Assembly: GCA_016180855.1 (NCBI GenBank)
Contig: JACPAL010000018.1
Span: 17,066 to 81,065 of the forward strand
Length of the DNA stretch: 64,000 nt
DNA from: Deltaproteobacteria bacterium
Lineage (GTDB): Bacteria; UBA10199; JACPAL01
Direction: 5' to 3'
Positions 5,693 to 47,995 of the stretch are shown here, one piece after another; position 1 is the first letter of the stretch, and each line of letters opens with the position of its first letter. The notes beneath the pieces are model-generated. The model searched no databases. It had not been told where the DNA came from and saw nothing but the letters and a program-made list of their open reading frames with translations. The translations under genes were made by a program, and so were the position numbers.

Positions 5693-7684
5693 GTGAAAAC
5701 GAGTCCCGCTAAAAATCAGGAACCCTTTTCCTTTGAAGAAGCGGTTTTTAAGGCGAGGGAGGCACTGCTTTCGGATCAATCCCCTAAAGGATACTGGTGG
5801 TACACCCTTGAGGCGAATGAGACGATTGGGGCCGGCTTCATCCAGCTGATGCATTTTTTAGGTGATGTCGATGCCGAGGTCGAAAAGGGTCTCGCCAGAA
5901 GAATTCTATCGGAACAGCGGCAAGACGGCTCTTGGGCCATTTTTTACGGAGGGCCAGCGGATCTTTCGACATCGATTGAATGCTATTTTGCCCTCCGTCT
6001 TGCCGGCCATTCTCCGGATGAGCCGGCGCTGGAACGTACAAGACTGTTTATTCTCTCTCACGGTGGGCTTGAGAGGGTTCGGGTTTTCACCAAAATTCAT
6101 CTGGCGCTTTTTGGGTTGATTACATGGGCGAAGTGCCCCTCAATGCCGCTCTGGTTTATCCACCTGCCCCACTGGCTTGGAATTTCAATCTATGAATTCT
6201 CCAGTTGGGCAAGGGCATCGATTGTACCACTGTTAATTATCCTGGATCGAAAACCAGTCAGGCCTCTTTCTTTTGATCTGAAGGAGCTTAAAGTATCCCC
6301 TCCCTTACTCTCTCCCCTTAAAATAAGGGGAGGGATGGGGAGGGGATATCAGTTTCCATGGAGGAACTTTTTCCTTCTTTTAGACAAAATCTTCAAAGCT
6401 ACGGAAAAACTTCCTTTTCATCCCGGTAAACAACATTTTCTAAAGAAATGTGAGGAATGGATCAGACGTCATATCGAAAGGACGGAAGATATCTACCCCG
6501 CAATGGCCTATGCCGCCTTGGCCATGAAGGCGCTTGGGTATCCCAATAGTGATCCAACAATCCAGAAGGCGTTAGCAGGCCTTAGACGATTTCAACAAAG
6601 TCACCGGGGCACTGACTTACCGATGGTAAGTGATAAGTCGGTAGGGGGCGGAGCCCCCTCCGAGTATCTTATCCATCAACAGTGTTGCATCTCCCCCCTA
6701 TGGGATACCCCCTGGGCCTGTCATGCCCTCTTGGAATCGGGCCTTCCGGCCGACGACCCCCATCTGAAAAGGGCCGCAAAATTTCTCATTTCAAAACAGA
6801 TTGTGGACTTTCATGGCGACTGGTCCCTCAAAAACAGCAGCGCCAAACCAGGTGGTTGGGCGTTTGAGTTTCAAAATGACTATTTTCCCGATGTCGACGA
6901 CACGATTGAAATCCTCCGCTTCATGAAAAGGGTCGATCTGCCGGTATCAGAGAAGAAGGGGACAATCGATCGGGGGCTTGAATGGCTCCTCTCCATGCAA
7001 TCAAAAAACGGTGGTTGGGCCGCATTTGACAAGAACAATCTTTCTACCTGGGTCAACAAGATTCCATTCTCCGATCACGGGGCCTGCCTCGACCCGCCAA
7101 CCCCGGATATCACGGGTCGAATGATTGAATTGTTGGTCTTGTTTAATTATTCAAAGGAGGATCCAGTCATCCAAAACAGCTTGAATTTTTTGTTTAAAAC
7201 CCAGGAACCGAATGGATCCTGGAGGGGGCGATGGGGGGTCAATTACCTTTACGGAACCTGGTGTGTCGTTCAGGGACTCGCCATGATCCACGATGAAAAA
7301 ACAGGGCTCGCGATTGGCCGCGCGATACGCTGGCTCCAGTCGGTCCAGAACCCGGATGGCGGTTGGGGAGAATCCTGCCTTTCAGACAAGGAAAATCGGT
7401 ATCTCCCCTTAGAGGTTTCAGTTCCTTCTCAAACCGCCTGGGCCGTCATGACCCTGATCGCCGCCGGCAAAAGAAGTTCCGAGTCGTGTCGCCGCGGAAT
7501 TGATTTTCTTATTGCCTCACAAACAGCCGACGGCCGATGGGAGGAAAGACACTTTACAGGAACGGGATTCCCGGGACATTTCTACATCCGCTATCACGGC
7601 TACCGACAGTATTTTCCGCTGCTCGCGTTGGGGAAATATCGAACGGACAAAAGAGAGCTGAAAACTATCGCTTGTCCGGCTTGA
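5693..7684 (+). CDS. shc: squalene-hopene cyclase
   Basis: DVDDT (DxDDTA) catalytic motif, repeated QW motifs (GGW/GSW) and CxSPLWDT. 663 aa. Confidence 0.9.
   Translation: MKTSPAKNQEPFSFEEAVFKAREALLSDQSPKGYWWYTLEANETIGAGFIQLMHFLGDVDAEVEKGLARRILSEQRQDGSWAIFYGGPADLSTSIECYFALRLAGHSPDEPALERTRLFILSHGGLERVRVFTKIHLALFGLITWAKCPSMPLWFIHLPHWLGISIYEFSSWARASIVPLLIILDRKPVRPLSFDLKELKVSPPLLSPLKIRGGMGRGYQFPWRNFFLLLDKIFKATEKLPFHPGKQHFLKKCEEWIRRHIERTEDIYPAMAYAALAMKALGYPNSDPTIQKALAGLRRFQQSHRGTDLPMVSDKSVGGGAPSEYLIHQQCCISPLWDTPWACHALLESGLPADDPHLKRAAKFLISKQIVDFHGDWSLKNSSAKPGGWAFEFQNDYFPDVDDTIEILRFMKRVDLPVSEKKGTIDRGLEWLLSMQSKNGGWAAFDKNNLSTWVNKIPFSDHGACLDPPTPDITGRMIELLVLFNYSKEDPVIQNSLNFLFKTQEPNGSWRGRWGVNYLYGTWCVVQGLAMIHDEKTGLAIGRAIRWLQSVQNPDGGWGESCLSDKENRYLPLEVSVPSQTAWAVMTLIAAGKRSSESCRRGIDFLIASQTADGRWEERHFTGTGFPGHFYIRYHGYRQYFPLLALGKYRTDKRELKTIACPA
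6294..6348. repeat. GC-palindromic element (TTAA-centred subtype) inserted in-frame in shc
   Basis: atcccctcccttactctctccccttaaaataaggggagggatggggaggggat. Encodes VSPPLLSPLKIRGGMGRG. Confidence 0.65.
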
Positions 7685-15354: not shown

Positions 15355-16251
15355 ATGAGTCCCATCAAAGTGATGTCACTTAAAGAAGAACTCGAGGAGA
15401 TGCAAAATAACGTCGCCCTCTATAAGGCAAGCGATGAGAGACATCTTCATATGGAAGGGCCTGACGCGACCGATTATCTCCAAAGAATGGTCACAAATGA
15501 GGTCAAGACCCAGCCGATCGGCGAGGGACGTCACAACGCCCTGCTCGATCGAAAAGGTCATCCCCTCTCCCTCTTCTTTTTGATTAGGCTCTCCGAAAAC
15601 TTGTATCATCTGATTACACCACCCCAACTTAAGGAAAAGACCGCAGGGCTCTTGAAGAAATATAAGGTGATTGAGCGGTTTGAGATCAAAGATGTGAGTC
15701 AGGAGTGGGGGATTTATTGGGTAGTGGGATCTCCCGTGCCACCCGCTCTTCTGCCTGCTATTTGGCAAGAAACCATTTACAAAATCCCCGTTCGCAAAAT
15801 TCTCTATCCCAAAAATAACCCCCCTCCACTGGGAGATCTCCCTTCTGTTTCCAGACAGGCAATTGACCTCTTAAGGATGGAGGCGGGGATCCCGGAATAC
15901 GGTGTTGATATCGATGAGACGCATATTCTTCTGGAGGCCAATCTGGAGCATTGCTATAAGCGACAAAAAGGATGCTACCCCGGTCAGGAGGTGATCGAAA
16001 GAATATTGGCTTACGGTAAGGGACAGACACCGAAAAAACTTGTCACCCTGCTTGTAGAAGGAGAACGGGAGATACCCCCTAAGACAGCGATCTGGACGGC
16101 TGATAATCAAAAAGCAGGCGAAACAACCTCGGCCCTCTTTAACCCTTTAAAAAATGAGACCGTCGTCCTTGCCTACTTGGAGAATAAGTATCTTCCCCAA
16201 AGCAAGCTACATTTTGAGGATGGAACCTCTACAAAACTGCCCAGATGCTAG
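15355..16251 (+). CDS. ygfZ: YgfZ/GcvT-like folate-binding protein
   Basis: Signature KGCYPGQE near the C-terminal third, plus an aminomethyltransferase-like fold. Confidence 0.6.
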   Translation: MSPIKVMSLKEELEEMQNNVALYKASDERHLHMEGPDATDYLQRMVTNEVKTQPIGEGRHNALLDRKGHPLSLFFLIRLSENLYHLITPPQLKEKTAGLLKKYKVIERFEIKDVSQEWGIYWVVGSPVPPALLPAIWQETIYKIPVRKILYPKNNPPPLGDLPSVSRQAIDLLRMEAGIPEYGVDIDETHILLEANLEHCYKRQKGCYPGQEVIERILAYGKGQTPKKLVTLLVEGEREIPPKTAIWTADNQKAGETTSALFNPLKNETVVLAYLENKYLPQSKLHFEDGTSTKLPRC

Positions 16252-16347
16252 GCGCCCGCGAGCCAAAGACCGGAGCGTACTTGGCTGGTACGTGAGGATC
16301 TTTGGCGAGAGGGCAACAACGCAGATGGGCAGTTTTTAGAGGTTTTC
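16249..16347. repeat. family-1 related element (core gcgcccgc...ccggagcgtact...ggtacgtgagga...gcgggcaac...cagatgggcagtttttagagg) lacking TIRs
   Basis: Shares about 80 bp of core with 32905-33030 and the reverse complement of 47866-47970. Exactly spans the ygfZ-stop to PLP-enzyme-stop gap. Confidence 0.75.
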
Positions 16348-17646: not shown

Positions 17647-17804
17647 GTTATGGGGTGTGTTGAAAAATGGCTTTTGTGGACTGTTCAAAAATGCCCAGCT
17701 GCAAGACACCCCGAGGAGCCGCGACGCAGGCGTACTTGAGGGTACGTCGAGGAGCCGGCGACGAGGGGAACGCAGCAGATGGCATTTTTCAACAGTCCCT
17801 TATG
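17647..17804. repeat. family-2 MITE-like element with about 20-bp TIRs (GGGGACTGTTGAAAAATGCC) and TTATG flanks
   Basis: Near-identical to 37496-37626 apart from a 26-bp internal insertion. Fills the gap between the PLP-enzyme start and the recG stop. Confidence 0.8.
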
Positions 17805-27571: not shown

Positions 27572-27620
27572 CGGACCAATTTATAGGGTTGTCACACAAG
27601 GTTGTCTAGGGGAATTTAGC

Positions 27621-27690
27621 CCTCTCCCCTTGGCCTGCCCTGAGCGAACCTGTCCTGAGCATCGTCGAAGGAGCCGAAGGGCGGGTGAGG
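27621..27690. repeat. family-3 GC-rich palindromic element (C-rich left arm, G-rich right arm, core cctgagc...gtcctgagc...gtcgaagga), intergenic prototype
   Basis: ccctctccccttggcctgccctgagcgaacctgtcctgagcatcgtcgaaggagccgaagggcgggtgagggg, between the yraN stop and the fadD-like start. Confidence 0.7.
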
Positions 27691-27697
27691 GGAAAAA

Positions 27698-28084
27698 TTA
27701 GTACCCCCACTGCAACAGAAACAGATCCGGGACCCATTCGCAGAAGGGGGGTGTTTTTTCAAAATCGACAATGATCAAGGCAAAGGAACCGGCTTGGTCA
27801 ACAATCTTTTTCGAGGCGTAATACTGCTGGGCAACACGTGAAATATGAAGCTGTTTCGGATACGGTACGAGCTCATAAGGTGAGACCCCTTCAAGAGAGC
27901 GACGACTCTTGACCTCTACAAAATAAAGGGCCTTCTCTTTTTCGGCAATCAAGTCGATCTCGCCTAAACGACATCGATAATTTCGTTCCCTAATCTGAAA
28001 ACCCCGGTTTTTGAGGAACTGAACCGCCTCCTCTTCCCCTTCCCTCCCCAGCTTTTTCTTTAAGAAATCCGGTTGCATGTTCAT
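27698..28084 (-). CDS. yraN: YraN-family (UPF0102) putative endonuclease
   Basis: GEEEAVQFLKNRGFQIRERNYRCRLGEIDLIA...YFVEVKSRR signature. Confidence 0.7.
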   Translation of the reverse strand: MNMQPDFLKKKLGREGEEEAVQFLKNRGFQIRERNYRCRLGEIDLIAEKEKALYFVEVKSRRSLEGVSPYELVPYPKQLHISRVAQQYYASKKIVDQAGSFALIIVDFEKTPPFCEWVPDLFLLQWGY

Positions 28085-32904: not shown

Positions 32905-33030
32905 CCTCCTGAGCAAAGTCGAAGGAATGCAAGGCGCCCGCAAGGCCGCGACCGGAGCGTACTTTCGTGGTACGTGAGGACGCGGACGAAGCGGGCAACA
33001 CAGCAGATGGGTAGTTTTTAGAGGTGCCCA
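32905..33030. repeat. family-1 related element with 5' cctgagcaaagtcgaagga module
   Basis: Core alignment to 16253-16345 and 47866-47970. Located upstream of yicC. Confidence 0.75.
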
Positions 33031-43106: not shown

Positions 43107-45766
43107 AGGTTCCGATAGGTTTCCGAGAGGCGTTCTACCTTCTCGACGTTGGTTCTCTGTTTTTGCCGCTCCTCCGCCACAAGTTCAGGGTCAGCATGAT
43201 TCAAAAAACCAGGGTCGGATAATTTTTTATGGAGTCGATCTCCAAGCTCGTTCAGCTTCTGAATCTCCTTTTCAAGGCGCTTCTTCTCCGTTTCAAGATC
43301 GACAAGTCCTTCCAGTGGGAGATAGAGATCCAACCGGCCGAGTGAATAGTGGGCCATTTTTTTTGAAACTGGTTTTGCGGAGACAAACTGGAGACTGCAG
43401 GAACGCGTCATCTTTTCTATCATCCCCTTTTCCCCTTCCAGCCAATGCCTCTCCTCCCTCTCCTCAACAGACAGGATCGGCTGAATCTCCTGGGCAGCCT
43501 GAATCCCATTCTCACCACGCAATGTCCGAAGTGCCGTCACAATCTCCATCAATCTTTCAACACGCCTTGGCTCTCCCTCAAAGTCCCATTGTTTGGGAGT
43601 CGGAAAAGATTCTATTCCGATCGATAGCCCTTCTTTCTGATTTAAAAACTGACAGATCTCCTCCGTGATAAACGGCATGAATGGATGAAGGGCCCGGAGG
43701 GTTTCATCCAGAATCTCGGAGAAGACCGACTGATTCAACCGAACCTTGGAGAACTCCAGATACCAGTCACACAAGGTGTGCCAAAAAAAGTCATAAAGTT
43801 CCTTCGCCGCCTCATCAAAACGATACCCCTCGATTCCCCTTGTTATTTTTGCGAGTGAAGAGGCCCACTTCTGCAAAATCCATTGATCATAGTCGCTTAA
43901 GATCTCGCGAGAGATCTCCTGAGGCGGCAGGCTCACAAAAAAACGCGCCGCGTTCCAGATCTTGTTACAGAAGTTCCGATACCCCTCAATCACGGGCTCG
44001 GAGAGCTTCACATCACGACCGGGCACCGCCAGGACCGCCAACGTAAAACGAAAGGCATCCGTACCAAATTGATCCATGATCGTGAGCGGATCAATGACAT
44101 TTCCCTTCGACTTGCTCATCTTCTGTCCCTGCGCGTCACGCACGAGGGCATGGATATAAATATCCTTAAAAGGAACCTCCCCCATAAACTCAAGCCCCAT
44201 CATCATCATCCGGGCGACCCAGAAAAAAATGATATCGAAGCCCGTAATCAGAACCGATGTGGGGTAAAAGGTCTTAAGCTCCTCTGTCTGGTCCGGCCAA
44301 CCGAGTGTAGAAAAGGGCCAGAGGGCGGAGGAGAACCAGGTATCGAGAACATCGGAATCTTGCTCAAGTTCGGTCGAGCCGCAGGTGGGACATTTTTTAG
44401 GTATATCACGGGAAACAATAGGAGGACATATCCCCCCCTTCCCCCCCCTTAATTTAAGGGAGGGGATACAGTACCACGCCGGAATCCGATGCCCCCACCA
44501 GATCTGACGTGAAACACACCAATCTTTAATCTCACCCATCCAGTTCGCGTAGGTCTTTGTCCAATTGTCCGGAAAGAATCGTGCCTTTCCATCCTGAACC
44601 GCTTGAAGCGCCTTTTCCGCGAGTGGCTTTGTTTTTACAAACCACTGCATCGAAAGATACGGTTCCACAACAGTTCGACAGCGATAACAATGGCCAACCG
44701 AGAGCTTGTGCGGTTCAACCTTTTCAAGAAACCCTTGCTGCTCCAGCTCTTCGACAATCTTTTTTCGGCATTCGAAACGATCCAACCCCTGAAAGGAGAC
44801 CGCGTTTTCGTTCATCCTCCCTTCATCCGTAAAAATATTAATACGAGGGAGCTTATGGTCGTTTCCAAAAATGAAATCGTTGAAGTCATGGGCCGGGGTT
44901 ACTTTAACCGCACCCGTCCCAAACTCCTTGTCAACACGAGGGTCAGAAATAATAGGGATCTCCCGATTGACTAAAGGCAATAATAGTTTTTTACCAATAA
45001 GACCTTTATACCGTTCATCTTCAGGGTGAACCGCAACGGCGGTATCTCCAAGCATCGTTTCAGGACGCGTGGTGGCCACCCTCACCCCCACCCCCTCTCC
45101 CGCCCTTCGGCATGGCTCAGGGAAGGCCAAGGGGAGAGGAGAGGCAAATGGGTAGCGAACAAACCACAAATGCCCATTCGTCTCATGATGCTCTACCTCC
45201 AGATCGGAAAGCGCCGTCTTGCAACGAGGACACCAGTTGATGAGATAGAGATCACGGTAGATCAGCCCCTTGTTGTAAAGACGGACAAACGCCTCACGCA
45301 CGGCGCGCGAGAGCCCCTCATCCATCGTAAACCGTTCGCGCTTCCAGTCACAGGAGGCCCCCAATCTTTTTAGTTGATGAATGATCTGTCCACCCGACTG
45401 CCCCTTCCATTCCCAAACCTTTTCAATGAAGCGTTCCCTTCCCAAATCCTGTCGTTTCTTCCCCTCCTTGGCTATGTCACGCTCTACAACGTTCTGCGTC
45501 GCAATGCCGGCATGATCAGTCCCCGGCATCCAGAGGACATTGAACCCTTTCATCCGTTTGTAGCGGGCAAGGATGTCCTGGAGGGTGTTGTTCAGGGCAT
45601 GCCCCATATGAAGCGAGCCCGTGACGTTCGGTGGCGGGATCACCATACAAAATGGGGGTTTGGATGATTTTGGCTCTGCATGGAAGTAGCCTTCCTTGAG
45701 CCAGACTTCTGACCATCGTCTCTCAACTTCATGCGGCTCGTACGCCTTGGGGAGTTCCCTCTTCAT
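43103..45766 (-). CDS. valS: valine--tRNA ligase
   Basis: HMGH and KMSKS motifs, plus a C-terminal coiled coil. 887 aa. Contains two in-frame palindromic element insertions (see repeats). Confidence 0.95.
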   Translation of the reverse strand: MKRELPKAYEPHEVERRWSEVWLKEGYFHAEPKSSKPPFCMVIPPPNVTGSLHMGHALNNTLQDILARYKRMKGFNVLWMPGTDHAGIATQNVVERDIAKEGKKRQDLGRERFIEKVWEWKGQSGGQIIHQLKRLGASCDWKRERFTMDEGLSRAVREAFVRLYNKGLIYRDLYLINWCPRCKTALSDLEVEHHETNGHLWFVRYPFASPLPLAFPEPCRRAGEGVGVRVATTRPETMLGDTAVAVHPEDERYKGLIGKKLLLPLVNREIPIISDPRVDKEFGTGAVKVTPAHDFNDFIFGNDHKLPRINIFTDEGRMNENAVSFQGLDRFECRKKIVEELEQQGFLEKVEPHKLSVGHCYRCRTVVEPYLSMQWFVKTKPLAEKALQAVQDGKARFFPDNWTKTYANWMGEIKDWCVSRQIWWGHRIPAWYCIPSLKLRGGKGGICPPIVSRDIPKKCPTCGSTELEQDSDVLDTWFSSALWPFSTLGWPDQTEELKTFYPTSVLITGFDIIFFWVARMMMMGLEFMGEVPFKDIYIHALVRDAQGQKMSKSKGNVIDPLTIMDQFGTDAFRFTLAVLAVPGRDVKLSEPVIEGYRNFCNKIWNAARFFVSLPPQEISREILSDYDQWILQKWASSLAKITRGIEGYRFDEAAKELYDFFWHTLCDWYLEFSKVRLNQSVFSEILDETLRALHPFMPFITEEICQFLNQKEGLSIGIESFPTPKQWDFEGEPRRVERLMEIVTALRTLRGENGIQAAQEIQPILSVEEREERHWLEGEKGMIEKMTRSCSLQFVSAKPVSKKMAHYSLGRLDLYLPLEGLVDLETEKKRLEKEIQKLNELGDRLHKKLSDPGFLNHADPELVAEERQKQRTNVEKVERLSETYRNL
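44431..44470. repeat. GC-palindromic element (TTAA-centred subtype) inserted in-frame in valS
   Basis: atccccccccttccccccccccttaatttaagggaggggat. Encodes PSLKLRGGKGG, the same SLK[IL]RGG peptide as the shc copy. Confidence 0.65.
45066..45134. repeat. family-3 palindromic element (short form) inserted in-frame in valS
   Basis: The reverse complement cctctcctctccccttggccttccctgagc..ccgaagggcgggagaggggg aligns with 27621-27690. Encodes PLPLAFPEPCRRAGEGVGV in a variable ValS loop. Confidence 0.65.
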
Positions 45767-45793: not shown

Positions 45794-46615
45794 CTAAATT
45801 GCACGAAACTTTTTATCAGCAACGATCCTGAGCCCCTTCAAGGTCAGAAACGGCTCCAGCTTTTGAATGGTCCGACACTCCTTGGCAATCAAGGTGGCGA
45901 ATCCACCAGTCGCTATCACTGCCGTTTTCATACCAAGCTCCTTCTGAATGAGCCCTACCAGCCGATCGACGAGACCGGCGTATCCATAATAAACGCCTCC
46001 CTGGATACACTCCCTCGTCTGCCTCCCAATAACCCGCTTCGGTTTTGCAATTGAAACGAGCGGTAGCTTGGCTGTCTTCTCATGTAACGCCTCAAGGCAG
46101 ATTCGTAAGCCAGGAACGATCGGTCCACCAAGGTATTCCCCCTGCGCTGAAACGACATCCAAGGTCGTCGCAGTCCCGAAATCAATGATGATAATGGGAA
46201 CGGTCTTTAAATCCCCCCTCGCCCCCCTTTGACTTGTCCTGAGCCCTGTCGAAGGACAAAGGGGGGTTGGGGGGATTTTCCATGCCGCAACTGCATTCGC
46301 AATCCGATCGGCCCCCACTTCTGACGGTTTTTTTGTCTTAAACCTGATCGGCAGTTTTGTCCTGGATGTCACAAACAGAGGCTCAACTCCAAATTTCTTT
46401 CTGAGAAGAAGACGGAACGGTTTATCCAGTCGGGGGACAACACTTGCCACGACAACGCAATTAACTTGCGAGATCCAAAGTTTCCGCAAAAGGGAGAGCC
46501 CCTTGTGGGTCTCAAAACGACGATGCCACCGGAGCCGCTCCCCCTCAAATAGGCCGACGACAATATTTGTATTGCCTACATCAATGGCGAGAATCTTTCT
46601 CTTCCCCTCACCCAC
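45794..46615 (-). CDS. coaX: type III pantothenate kinase
   Basis: ILAIDVGNTN and IIIIDFGTATT phosphate motifs. About 20-25 aa longer than typical because of a palindromic in-frame insertion. Confidence 0.85.
   Translation of the reverse strand: MGEGKRKILAIDVGNTNIVVGLFEGERLRWHRRFETHKGLSLLRKLWISQVNCVVVASVVPRLDKPFRLLLRKKFGVEPLFVTSRTKLPIRFKTKKPSEVGADRIANAVAAWKIPPTPLCPSTGLRTSQRGARGDLKTVPIIIIDFGTATTLDVVSAQGEYLGGPIVPGLRICLEALHEKTAKLPLVSIAKPKRVIGRQTRECIQGGVYYGYAGLVDRLVGLIQKELGMKTAVIATGGFATLIAKECRTIQKLEPFLTLKGLRIVADKKFRAI
46211..46277. repeat. family-3 palindromic element inserted in-frame in coaX
   Basis: atcccccctcgccccccttt-gacttgtcctgagccctgtcgaaggacaa-aggggggttggggggat. Encodes IPPTPLCPSTGLRTSQRGARGD between conserved CoaX segments. 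Confidence 0.7.
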
Positions 46616-47842: not shown

Positions 47843-47995
47843 CAGGATAGCGACAAAGGCCCATCTACTGCGGGCTTCGACTGAGCTCAGCCGAAGTCTT
47901 GCCCGCTTCAACCGCAATCCTCACGTACCGGTAAAGTACGCTCCGGTTGCGGCCTTGCGGGCGCCTTGCATCTGGACCTTTGTCGCTATCCTGTT
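47841..47995. repeat. family-1 MITE-like element, full copy with 17-bp perfect TIRs CAGGATAGCGACAAAGG and TTAA/TTAT flanks
   Basis: aacaggatagcgacaaaggcc at the left end and ggacctttgtcgctatcctgtt at the right. Fills the convergent PEBP / Na-Pi transporter gap exactly and supplies part of both stop codons. Confidence 0.8.

What the first reader, a model, noticed from the sequence alone, without database searches (positions are those of the whole stretch)
44431..44470. Same TTAA-centred GC palindrome inserted in-frame in valS, encoding PSLKLRGGKGG
atccccccccttccccccccccTTAAtttAAgggaggggat sits between the conserved WYC and CPTCG zinc-knuckle residues of ValS. It adds about 15 aa whose core matches the shc insertion peptide. 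Two independent essential genes carrying the same translated repeat argues for a mobile protein-coding palindromic element, not coincidence.
Basis: seen in the sequence. Interest (0 to 1): 0.65.

Follow-up and report, generated by a model that had tools for sequence, protein, structure and literature searches.

The report
Tiny palindromic repeat inside valS

Summary
On the coding (-) strand valS reads TGT|ATCCCCTCCCTTAAATTAAGGGGGGGGAAGGGGGGGATA|TGT. That puts 13 residues (IPSLKLRGGKGGI) between the two cysteines of the first CxxC zinc knuckle, where element-free orthologues have 1-4.

It belongs to a dispersed ~49-nt palindrome family, with metagenome consensus TAACCCCCCTTCATCCCCCCTTAAATTAAGGGGGGATGAAGGGGGGTTA. 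A profile built only from 26 metagenome copies hits the window exactly twice: shc (E=3e-9) and this valS site (E=1e-8). Most metagenome copies are intergenic, so this is not a protein-coding module. The shared PLK(L/I)RGG peptide is forced, because only one frame per strand lacks TAA stops and the C and G runs read as Pro and Gly in any frame.

Related hairpin elements lie in valS a second time, in coaX, and in one intergenic spacer. The two valS elements are the only stretches of the AlphaFold model with pLDDT below 50. A 99% identical strain differs by only two indels, both inside elements and both multiples of three.

Unexpectedly, the same valS codon junction carries the element in orthologues of 62-67% identity that are not monophyletic. 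The element is also the most nucleotide-conserved stretch of the gene. The mobilising enzyme is unknown. I rate it a new member of the RPE/REP/MITE-like kind.

The parts
44429..44468 (-). valS element 1, the finding. A truncated TTAA-centred poly-C/poly-G palindrome, TATCCCC...CCCTTAATTTAAGGG...GGGGATA, read on the - strand as IPSLKLRGGKGGI between Cys433 and Cys447.
   Evidence: The metagenome-only profile hits it at E=1.1e-8. AlphaFold pLDDT is below 50 at residues 436-444.
43103..45766 (-). valS, the host gene (valine-tRNA ligase, 887 aa).
   Evidence: Homologues. Match to 1GAX at E=1.5e-258.
6294..6348 (+). shc element. A full-length TTAA-type copy (55 nt), TATCCCCTCCCTTACTCTCTCCCCTTAAAATAAGGGGAGGGATGGGGAGGGGATA, read as SPPLLSPLKIRGGMGRG.
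   Evidence: Profile hit at E=3.3e-9. It is the most stable 70-nt hairpin in the window (-44.6 kcal/mol against a mean of -14.1, sd 5.1). Fold z-score is -6.3.
6326..6361 (+). A 36-nt stretch (the G-rich arm plus 14 nt of flank) that is absent from the 99.2-99.5% identical strain GCA_016202325.1. The deletion is in frame and bounded by AGG microhomology.
45085..45145 (-). valS element 2. A CCTCTCCCC...GGGAGAGGGG hairpin with a central CCTGAGCCATGCCGAAGG module, read as SPLPLAFPEPCRRAGEGVGV, at the entry to the editing domain.
   Evidence: pLDDT is below 50 at residues 218-224. It is an insertion relative to 1GAX.
45105..45129 (-). A 25-nt central module that the sister strain replaces with a single C, giving a 24-nt in-frame indel.
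46209..46279 (-). coaX element. AAATCCCCCC..CCCCCCTTTGAC[TTGTCCTGAGCCCTGTCGAAGGACAA]AGGGGGG..GGGGGGATTT, read as IPPTPLCPSTGLRTSQRGARGDL inside type III pantothenate kinase.
   Evidence: It is the second most stable hairpin in the window (-41.6 kcal/mol). Orthologue L210 lacks it and L206 has a short version.
27620..27690 (.). An intergenic copy of the valS-2 type (CCCTCTCCCCTTGGCCTGCCCTGAGC...GCCGAAGGGCGGGTGAGGGG) with a further CCTGAGC..CGAAGG module nested in its loop.

Best explanation
The sequence is a partly decayed copy of a very small (~49 bp), non-autonomous palindromic repeat. The repeat has poly-C and poly-G arms around a TTAA-W-TTAA centre. It belongs to a family scattered through the genomes of several uncultured bacterial lineages, mostly between genes.

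Copies that land in coding DNA survive only under three conditions (inferred):
- the length change keeps the frame;
- the one stop-free frame per strand is the one being read;
- the site is a surface loop.

C and G runs translate to Pro and Gly in every frame, so the product is a flexible Pro...Leu-Lys-Leu-Arg-Gly-Gly loop. Here that loop bulges out of the first CxxC zinc knuckle of ValRS without disturbing the fold. The peptide is a passenger, not the function.

After insertion, copies change mainly by in-frame slippage deletions within the hairpin. Symmetric, template-switch-like changes may keep the two arms matched.

Shown: family membership, in-frame insertion relative to orthologues, disordered-loop location, strain-level in-frame indels confined to elements, and patchy distribution on the ValS tree.

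Inferred: that spread is by transposition or recombination using an enzyme supplied in trans, plausibly one that recognises hairpins or inverted repeats. No such enzyme was identified.
For: 1. Family. The scan for CCCCTTAAWWTAAGGGG returned at least 120 metagenome stretches. 48 of about 70 listed hits share the extended arms TAACCCC...GGGGTTA, with a modal length of 49 nt. A profile built from these copies alone finds only the shc and valS elements in the window.

2. Copies also occur in frame in genuine genes elsewhere: YchF of a Doudnabacteria-like CPR bacterium, an amidohydrolase and a GT9 glycosyltransferase.

3. Insertion relative to orthologues. L210 reads TGC GAT AAA AAA TGT and L209 reads TGT GAA TGT, whereas the window, L081 and L082 carry TGT|ATC..ATA|TGT.

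4. Only one frame per strand is open.

5. The only two stretches with pLDDT below 50 in the 887-aa model are the two valS elements.

6. Across 13.6 kb compared with a 99% identical strain, the only indels (24 and 36 nt) are inside elements and preserve the frame.

7. Other loops of ValS, CoaX, Shc and HemW carry related hairpin types in a lineage-specific way.

8. The pattern matches published accounts of RPEs and in-frame MITEs (PMC10969869).
Against: - No transposase was found among the 20 poorly annotated ORFs of the window.
- No empty/filled pair or target-site duplication is available for the TTAA type. The invariant terminal TA could be either a duplication or part of the element.
- The canonical 49 nt is not a multiple of 3, so extra trimming must be assumed.
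- The same junction is occupied in non-monophyletic ValS lineages (bearers monophyletic in 0 of 200 bootstraps).
- The element is 36/39 nt identical between the window and L081 while four-fold sites are saturated at 0.29 identity. A plain 'old neutral junk' model does not explain that.
Confidence: 0.7

Rival explanations
1. The hairpin is a functional nucleic-acid element kept by selection. It could be an mRNA structure that pauses translation between ValRS domains, a DNA site for a dimeric protein, or a hairpin/G-quadruplex switch. On this reading it was inserted once in an ancestor and retained.
For: - Between the window and L081 the element is the most conserved 16-codon window of the gene (0.94 against a mean of 0.67, sd 0.13), above the catalytic motifs. 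It is 36/39 nt identical (binomial P=1.3e-4) while four-fold sites are at 0.29.
- L082 shows a symmetric double change, TTAAATTAA to TTACTGTAA, that keeps the palindrome.
- The junctions TGT|ATC and ATA|TGT are identical in three lineages.
Against: - The window's own copy has lost about 9-12 nt of one arm.
- The sister strain deleted the whole G arm of the shc copy in frame without harm to the ORF.
- Bearers are polyphyletic, so at least 5-6 clean losses would be needed.
- The CPR YchF pair shows no excess conservation (0.76-0.79 against a gene mean of 0.72).
- The symmetric change affects centre positions that cannot pair in a hairpin.
- Most family copies are intergenic, in unrelated contexts.
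Confidence: 0.12
2. The element re-enters the same site repeatedly. This could be site-specific 'homing', or gene conversion of an older remnant by other genomic copies. The copies at the orthologous valS codon would then be younger than the genes that host them.
For: - Polyphyly of bearers with strong support: (P0006,P0008) 200/200, and (Q,P0002,P0003,P0004,P0007) 200/200.
- Element DNA is far more similar than the saturated synonymous sites.
- At the shc site, the window holds a TTAA-type copy but L213 holds the AAATCCCCCC..TTTTGCAAA type, which also occurs in the window's coaX.
- Nested modules sit exactly in hairpin loops.
- Insertion of REPINs into or beside existing REPINs is documented (PMC3116915).
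Against: - No enzyme or target motif was identified.
- The tree is NJ on a single protein, so ValS gene transfer or tree error could mimic polyphyly.
- Selection for tolerated loops could concentrate independent hits, but it would not explain identical nucleotide junctions.
Confidence: 0.15
3. The stretch is a lineage-specific protein loop selected for its peptide, for example a Pro/Gly linker that modulates the zinc knuckle. On this reading the palindrome is incidental to codon choice, or arose locally by template switching without any mobile family.
For: - This knuckle loop is length-variable in related ValS proteins.
- Template switching can create hairpins de novo (PMC8794818).
Against: - The same DNA occurs intergenically and in unrelated genes and phyla.
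- Profile E-values are about 1e-8.
- G and C are kept at synonymous positions.
- The loop is predicted to be disordered.
Confidence: 0.03

Closest known systems
Rickettsia palindromic elements (RPE; Ogata et al. 2000 Science 290:347, as summarised in PMC10969869)
   Same: - Dispersed palindromic repeats inserted in frame into unrelated housekeeping genes.
- The ORF is preserved and a conserved peptide is added at positions compatible with the fold.
- Copies are shared between related species and decay differentially.
   Different: - RPEs are about 100-150 bp, AT-rich and confined to Rickettsia. This element is about 49 bp with homopolymeric C/G arms and a TTAA centre.
- It occurs in an uncultured 'Deltaproteobacteria'-labelled groundwater lineage and in CPR bacteria, and is mostly intergenic outside this lineage.
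- Sequence homology to RPEs was not compared.
REP/REPIN elements mobilised by RAYT transposases (PMC3116915, PMC3733652)
   Same: - Short imperfect palindromes able to form hairpins in ssDNA or mRNA.
- High copy number, mostly extragenic, non-autonomous.
- A conserved asymmetry in the stem (TTCAT opposite AATAGA or ACAGA).
- Insertions into or next to existing copies.
   Different: - The termini are TAACCCC or TATCCCC, with no GTAG or CGTC tag.
- No RAYT gene was seen.
- Many copies in this lineage lie inside genes.
Bacterial MITEs that create in-frame fusions (ERIC, Anabaena MITEs; Delihas 2007 and Wolk 2010, cited in PMC10969869)
   Same: - Terminal inverted repeats and small size.
- Occasional intragenic, in-frame copies.
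- The invariant terminal TA would fit an IS630/mariner-type TA duplication.
   Different: - At 49 bp it lies at or below the usual MITE size.
- The whole element is one palindrome rather than inverted repeats flanking a core.
- No parent IS and no proven target-site duplication.
Small dispersed repeats (SDR) of heterocystous cyanobacteria (Elhai et al. 2008 Genome Res; from my own knowledge, named in PMC3116915)
   Same: Very small (about 20-30 nt) palindromic units that insert into one another and into genes. The 24-25-nt CCTGAGC..CGAAGG module nested in the hairpin loops, and polymorphic between strains, behaves this way.
   Different: Different taxa and different sequences. The SDR comparison rests on recall and was not tested here.
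Coding palindromes in Nematomorpha mitochondrial genes (PMC6649704)
   Same: Perfect or near-perfect inverted repeats embedded in protein-coding genes, with both arms translated.
   Different: The Nematomorpha case is mitochondrial and much longer (up to 284 bp). It was compared from the abstract only.

Membership tests
RPE-like in-frame palindromic repeat (functional class) | Multi-copy dispersed palindromic sequence. | tested here: met
   There are two TTAA-type copies and three related hairpin elements in the 64 kb window. At least 48 extended-arm copies occur in metagenomes. The profile gives E of about 1e-8.
RPE-like in-frame palindromic repeat (functional class) | Inserted in frame in conserved protein genes, which remain intact ORFs. 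| tested here: met
   This holds for valS, shc and coaX here, and for YchF, GT9 and an amidohydrolase elsewhere.
RPE-like in-frame palindromic repeat (functional class) | Insertion sites compatible with the protein fold (surface loops). | tested here: met
   The only segments of the AlphaFold2 model with pLDDT below 50 are 218-224 and 436-444, which are the two elements. Both are absent from 1GAX.
Rickettsia RPE families proper | About 100-150 bp, in Rickettsia, with sequence homology to RPE-1 to RPE-10. | tested here: not met
   The length is 40-55 nt and the host is not Rickettsia. Sequence homology was not compared directly.
REP/REPIN | Conserved GTAG or CGTC tag at one end (PMC3733652). 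| tested here: not met
   The termini are TAACCCC/GGGGTTA or TATCCCC/GGGGATA.
REP/REPIN | Linked RAYT (Y1 HUH transposase) gene in the genome. | not testable with these tools
   Only 64 kb of the genome is available. No transposase domain appeared in the 20 unannotated ORFs.
REP/REPIN | Predominantly extragenic. | tested here: inconclusive
   Metagenome copies are mostly intergenic. In this lineage, however, about 13 of the 14 copies seen are inside genes.
MITE | Terminal inverted repeats. | tested here: met
   The whole element is an inverted repeat.
MITE | Target-site duplication shown by comparing filled and empty sites. | tested here: inconclusive
   A terminal TA...TA is always present, but no empty site is available for the canonical family. 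At valS, the empty orthologues (TGC GAT AAA AAA TGT and TGT GAA TGT) do not fit a simple TA duplication.
MITE | Cognate autonomous IS with matching ends. | not tested
   This needs complete genomes. None is present in the window.
Intrinsic terminator | GC hairpin followed by a T run, located downstream of a gene. | tested here: not met
   The element lies inside an 887-codon ORF with no T tract.
Any Rfam RNA family | A covariance-model match. | tested here: not met
   The window has no hit at gathering score. Eight element-bearing loci give only sub-threshold miRNA-like hairpin noise.

The most novel reading that the evidence does not exclude
The element is not passive junk. One possibility is that it is re-targeted to, or re-copied into, exactly the same codon junction of an essential gene in separate lineages, a homing-like or conversion-driven 'self-renewing' coding palindrome. 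The other is that it is held by nucleotide-level selection as a functional mRNA or DNA structure. Either would explain why a disordered Pro/Gly loop is the most nucleotide-conserved stretch of valS between genomes whose synonymous sites are saturated. It would also define a cross-phylum family (CPR plus a 'delta'-like lineage, and present on viral contigs) of ultra-small mobile palindromes that write peptides into core enzymes.
Probability: 0.25. Interest if true: 0.75.

Novelty: new member of a known kind. Interest (0 to 1): 0.5.

Why it matters
In-frame 'selfish DNA' in core genes is textbook only for Rickettsia. Here the same phenomenon appears in free-living, uncultured groundwater bacteria and in CPR bacteria. 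It involves a much smaller element whose C/G arms suit it to protein loops, since they read as Pro/Gly in any frame.

This affects three practical matters:
- annotation, because such repeats may also account for spurious 'hypothetical proteins' and odd indels in marker genes;
- phylogenomics, because indels in ValRS, YchF and similar proteins are not independent characters;
- how new surface loops arise in conserved enzymes.

The recurrence at the same site with very high DNA conservation offers a tractable case for testing whether palindromes persist through homing, gene conversion or template-switch self-repair.

Tried and rejected
- Rfam: no family for the window or for eight element-bearing loci.
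- BLAST of the consensus against PLSDB plasmids: no hit, possibly because of low-complexity masking.
- Full-text search for the core sequence: only unrelated SARS-CoV-2 constructs.
- Exact look-up of the window's ValS: not on record.
None carries a clear TTAA-type element; L012 has a partial resemblance.
- My first gapless C-rich/G-rich hairpin detector was too noisy and missed the shc and coaX elements.
- Dinucleotide-shuffle z-scores are uninformative for these elements, because the composition alone folds strongly.
- Transposase hunt among 20 unannotated ORFs: none found.
- Test for excess nucleotide conservation in a second gene and phylum (the CPR YchF pair): negative.
- Assembly artefact: rejected, because independent assemblies agree.
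- Terminator, CRISPR repeat, and intein or intron: rejected. It lies inside an ORF, is not in an array, is too short, and is translated in frame in all relatives.
Full report
**1. The observation**

Window 44430-44467 (+) reads ATCCCCCCCTTCCCCCCCCTTAATTTAAGGGAGGGGAT. Otherwise the description is correct.

The stretch lies in an 887-codon ORF on the minus strand (43103..45766). This ORF is valS: it matches T. thermophilus ValRS 1GAX at E=1.5e-258 and has thousands of homologues.

On the coding strand it reads TGT ATC CCC TCC CTT AAA TTA AGG GGG GGG AAG GGG GGG ATA TGT, which translates to C-IPSLKLRGGKGGI-C. That places 13 residues between the two cysteines of the first zinc knuckle (CEDC in 1GAX). 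The CPTC knuckle follows 12 residues later.

Of 120 ValS relatives, 97 have a 29-residue version of this region; the window has 39 residues. Element-free relatives read TGC GAT AAA AAA TGT (L210) or TGT GAA TGT (L209).

**2. It is a copy of a dispersed repeat**

In the window, pairs of ATCCCC...GGGGAT 30-90 nt apart occur in shc (6295-6347), valS (44430-44467) and coaX (46211-46276), plus one unrelated match.

I scanned metagenome contigs for the shared core CCCCTTAAWWTAAGGGG.

- 48 of about 70 listed matches have the same extended C-rich and G-rich arms and the same ends. They form a family of modal length 49 nt: TAACCCCCCTTCATCCCCCCTTAAATTAAGGGGGGATGAAGGGGGGTTA. A second arm variant reads TAACCCCTCCTAACCTCCCC...GGGGAGGYNRGGTGGGGTTA.
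- Many copies keep the same asymmetry in the stem, with TTCAT opposite AATAGA or ACAGA.
- A profile HMM built only from 26 of these metagenome copies finds exactly two significant hits in the 64-kb window: shc (E=3.3e-9) and the valS site (E=1.1e-8).
- I found no match in Rfam, in plasmids or in the literature.

**3. It is not a protein-coding module**

Most metagenome copies are not inside long ORFs.

A few are in frame inside genuine genes: a YchF GTPase, an amidohydrolase and a GT9 glycosyltransferase. The YchF's closest named relatives are Candidatus Doudnabacteria, a CPR lineage. Most YchF orthologues lack the insert.

Translating the elements in all six frames shows that only one frame per strand is free of TAA stops. 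That frame always reads ...PPL(K/N)(L/I)RGG.... The arms read Pro and Gly in any frame. The peptide match between valS and shc therefore follows from the DNA and is not evidence that the peptide is selected.

**4. Related elements nearby**

- A second hairpin element lies in valS (about 45085-45145, SPLPLAFPEPCRRAGEGVGV).
- Another lies in coaX (46209-46279).
- One is intergenic (27620-27690).

All three have C-rich and G-rich arms. They share a central module CCTGAGCC-N-TG-N-CGAAGG, which is nested once more inside the intergenic copy.

In a sliding fold of the whole window, the shc and coaX elements are the two most stable 70-nt hairpins: -44.6 and -41.6 kcal/mol against a mean of -14.1 (sd 5.1).

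**5. Structure**

The AlphaFold2 model of the ValS (35-sequence alignment) has mean pLDDT 85.8 and pTM 0.81. It has only two segments with pLDDT below 50, residues 218-224 and 436-444. These fall exactly on the two elements. Both are insertions relative to 1GAX. They behave as extra, disordered surface loops.

**6. Recent dynamics**

A MAG from an independent assembly, GCA_016202325.1, is 98.7-99.5% identical over the 13.6 kb that could be compared. The only indels between it and the window are these:

- a 24-nt difference that removes the central module of valS element 2;
- a 36-nt deletion that removes the G arm of the shc element, bounded by AGG microhomology.

Both are multiples of three. 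The valS-1 and coaX elements are identical in the two strains. The elements are therefore the hot spots of structural change, selection keeps the frame, and loss of the hairpin in shc is tolerated.

**7. Deep distribution, which was unexpected**

ValS orthologues of 62-67% identity carry an element at the same junction.

| Locus | Protein | Sequence at the junction |
|---|---|---|
| L081 | P0006 | TGT\|ATCCCTCCCCAACCCCCCCTTAAATTAAGGGGGGGAGAGGGGGGGATA\|TGT, an intact 49-nt palindrome |
| L082 | P0005 | the same, with a symmetric centre change to TTACTGTAA |
| L083 | P0011 | CCCTCTCCCGCAAGGGGAGAGGG |

In a bootstrapped NJ tree the bearers are not monophyletic (0 of 200 replicates). P0006 pairs with element-free P0008 (200/200). 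The window's ValS groups with element-free P0007 and with P0002-P0004 (200/200).

Between the window and L081:

- four-fold synonymous sites are saturated, at 0.29 identity;
- the element is 36/39 nt identical (binomial P=1.3e-4);
- the element is the single most conserved 16-codon window of the gene, at 0.94 against a mean of 0.67, above the catalytic motifs.

The other sites behave similarly.

- coaX has a short element in L206 and none in L210.
- valS site 2 is occupied in L205, L206 and L209 but not in L081 or L083.
- The shc site in relatives of 64-66% identity holds PPTPPFAKGGKGG-type elements. In L213 the DNA is AAATCCCCCCACCCCCCCTTTTGCAAAGGGGGGCAAGGGGGGATTT. That is the subtype found in the window's coaX, not the TTAA subtype the window has in shc.
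- Further loops of ValS and HemW carry yet other hairpin families in single lineages.

An independent test pair, CPR YchF, showed no excess conservation of the element.

**8. Interpretation**

The best-supported reading is a selfish, non-autonomous palindromic repeat tolerated as a Pro/Gly loop. It is filtered by frame, by stop codons and by loop location, and it decays by in-frame slippage.

What mobilises it is unknown.

- No transposase is present among the window's unannotated ORFs.
- The invariant terminal TA could be a TA target duplication, but the empty valS sites do not fit a simple TA duplication.
- The hairpin with a conserved internal asymmetry resembles the substrates of Y1 HUH transposases (REP/RAYT; PMC3116915). 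It lacks the GTAG or CGTC tags (PMC3733652).

The polyphyletic occupancy of one site, together with very high element identity, is not explained by neutral decay of one old insertion. Three explanations remain possible, and I could not separate them with the data in reach:

- re-insertion or gene conversion into old remnants;
- nucleotide-level selection;
- template-switch 'self-correction' of quasipalindromes (PMC8794818).

**9. Comparison with known systems, and verdict**

In function this is the Rickettsia RPE phenomenon (PMC10969869), with features of REP/REPINs, MITEs and small dispersed repeats. It is not a member of those named families: the size, termini and hosts all differ.

I rate it a new member of a known kind, of moderate interest. 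A more novel reading, homing-like or functionally constrained coding palindromes, is not excluded.

Noticed in passing
window 16235-16335, 17690-17790, 32920-33020, 47885-47985: A second, unrelated repeat family of about 90 nt (...GCAAGGCGCCCGCAAGGCCGCGACCGGAGCGTACTT..GGTACGTGAGGA..GCGGGCAACA..). It has four intergenic copies, each a strong hairpin (-31 to -37 kcal/mol). It looks REP-like.
   Followed up: partly
window 27620-27690: An intergenic hairpin of the valS-2 type with a CCTGAGC..CGAAGG module nested inside another such module. It sits immediately next to a UPF0102/YraN-like nuclease gene (27698-28084).
   Followed up: partly
window 32908-32925: A solitary CCTGAGCAAAGTCGAAGG motif without C/G arms, adjacent to one of the 90-nt repeats. 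It may be a stray module or a chance match.
   Followed up: no
L214:393, L217:3092, L219:4323, L223:9091 (IMG/VR contigs): Canonical TAACCCC...TTAA...GGGGTTA elements occur on contigs classed as viral. This could be a route for spread between phyla, or host DNA in prophage calls.
   Followed up: partly
L120 ORF around 7459; L209 (P0008) valS loop near Q residues 610-620; L209 hemW: Other well-populated hairpin repeat families are translated inside genes in these uncultured lineages. The peptides include DPRLRGDD/MDPRLRGDEGG, RFFRYAQNDK and SFHSARDDK. Several proteins carry two or three different elements.
   Followed up: no
L210 17300-17400 (HemW-like radical SAM gene): Two tandem CCCCCCTTT..CAAAGGGGGG elements (IPPGPPFSKWGV and SEIPPFSKGGKGGF) lie in one loop. 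The window's orthologue (38429-39619) lacks them.
   Followed up: partly
P0003/P0004 and P0025-P0028 (ValS relatives): These ValS proteins have lost the zinc-knuckle cysteines altogether (WYDKDGKGH..., WYGPDGE...). The knuckle that hosts the element is therefore itself dispensable in some lineages.
   Followed up: no
window 6331-6349 and 44430-44446 (- strand mRNA): By eye, the G-rich arms (GGGGAGGGATGGGGAGGGG and GGGGGGGGAAGGGGGGG) look like G-quadruplex motifs on the mRNA strand, which could compete with the hairpin. I did not run a G4 predictor or test this.
   Followed up: no
L083 7012-9925: Topoisomerase VI A/B genes (Spo11/TP6A_N and Topo-VIb) lie next to valS in a bacterial MAG related to the window's lineage.
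   Followed up: no
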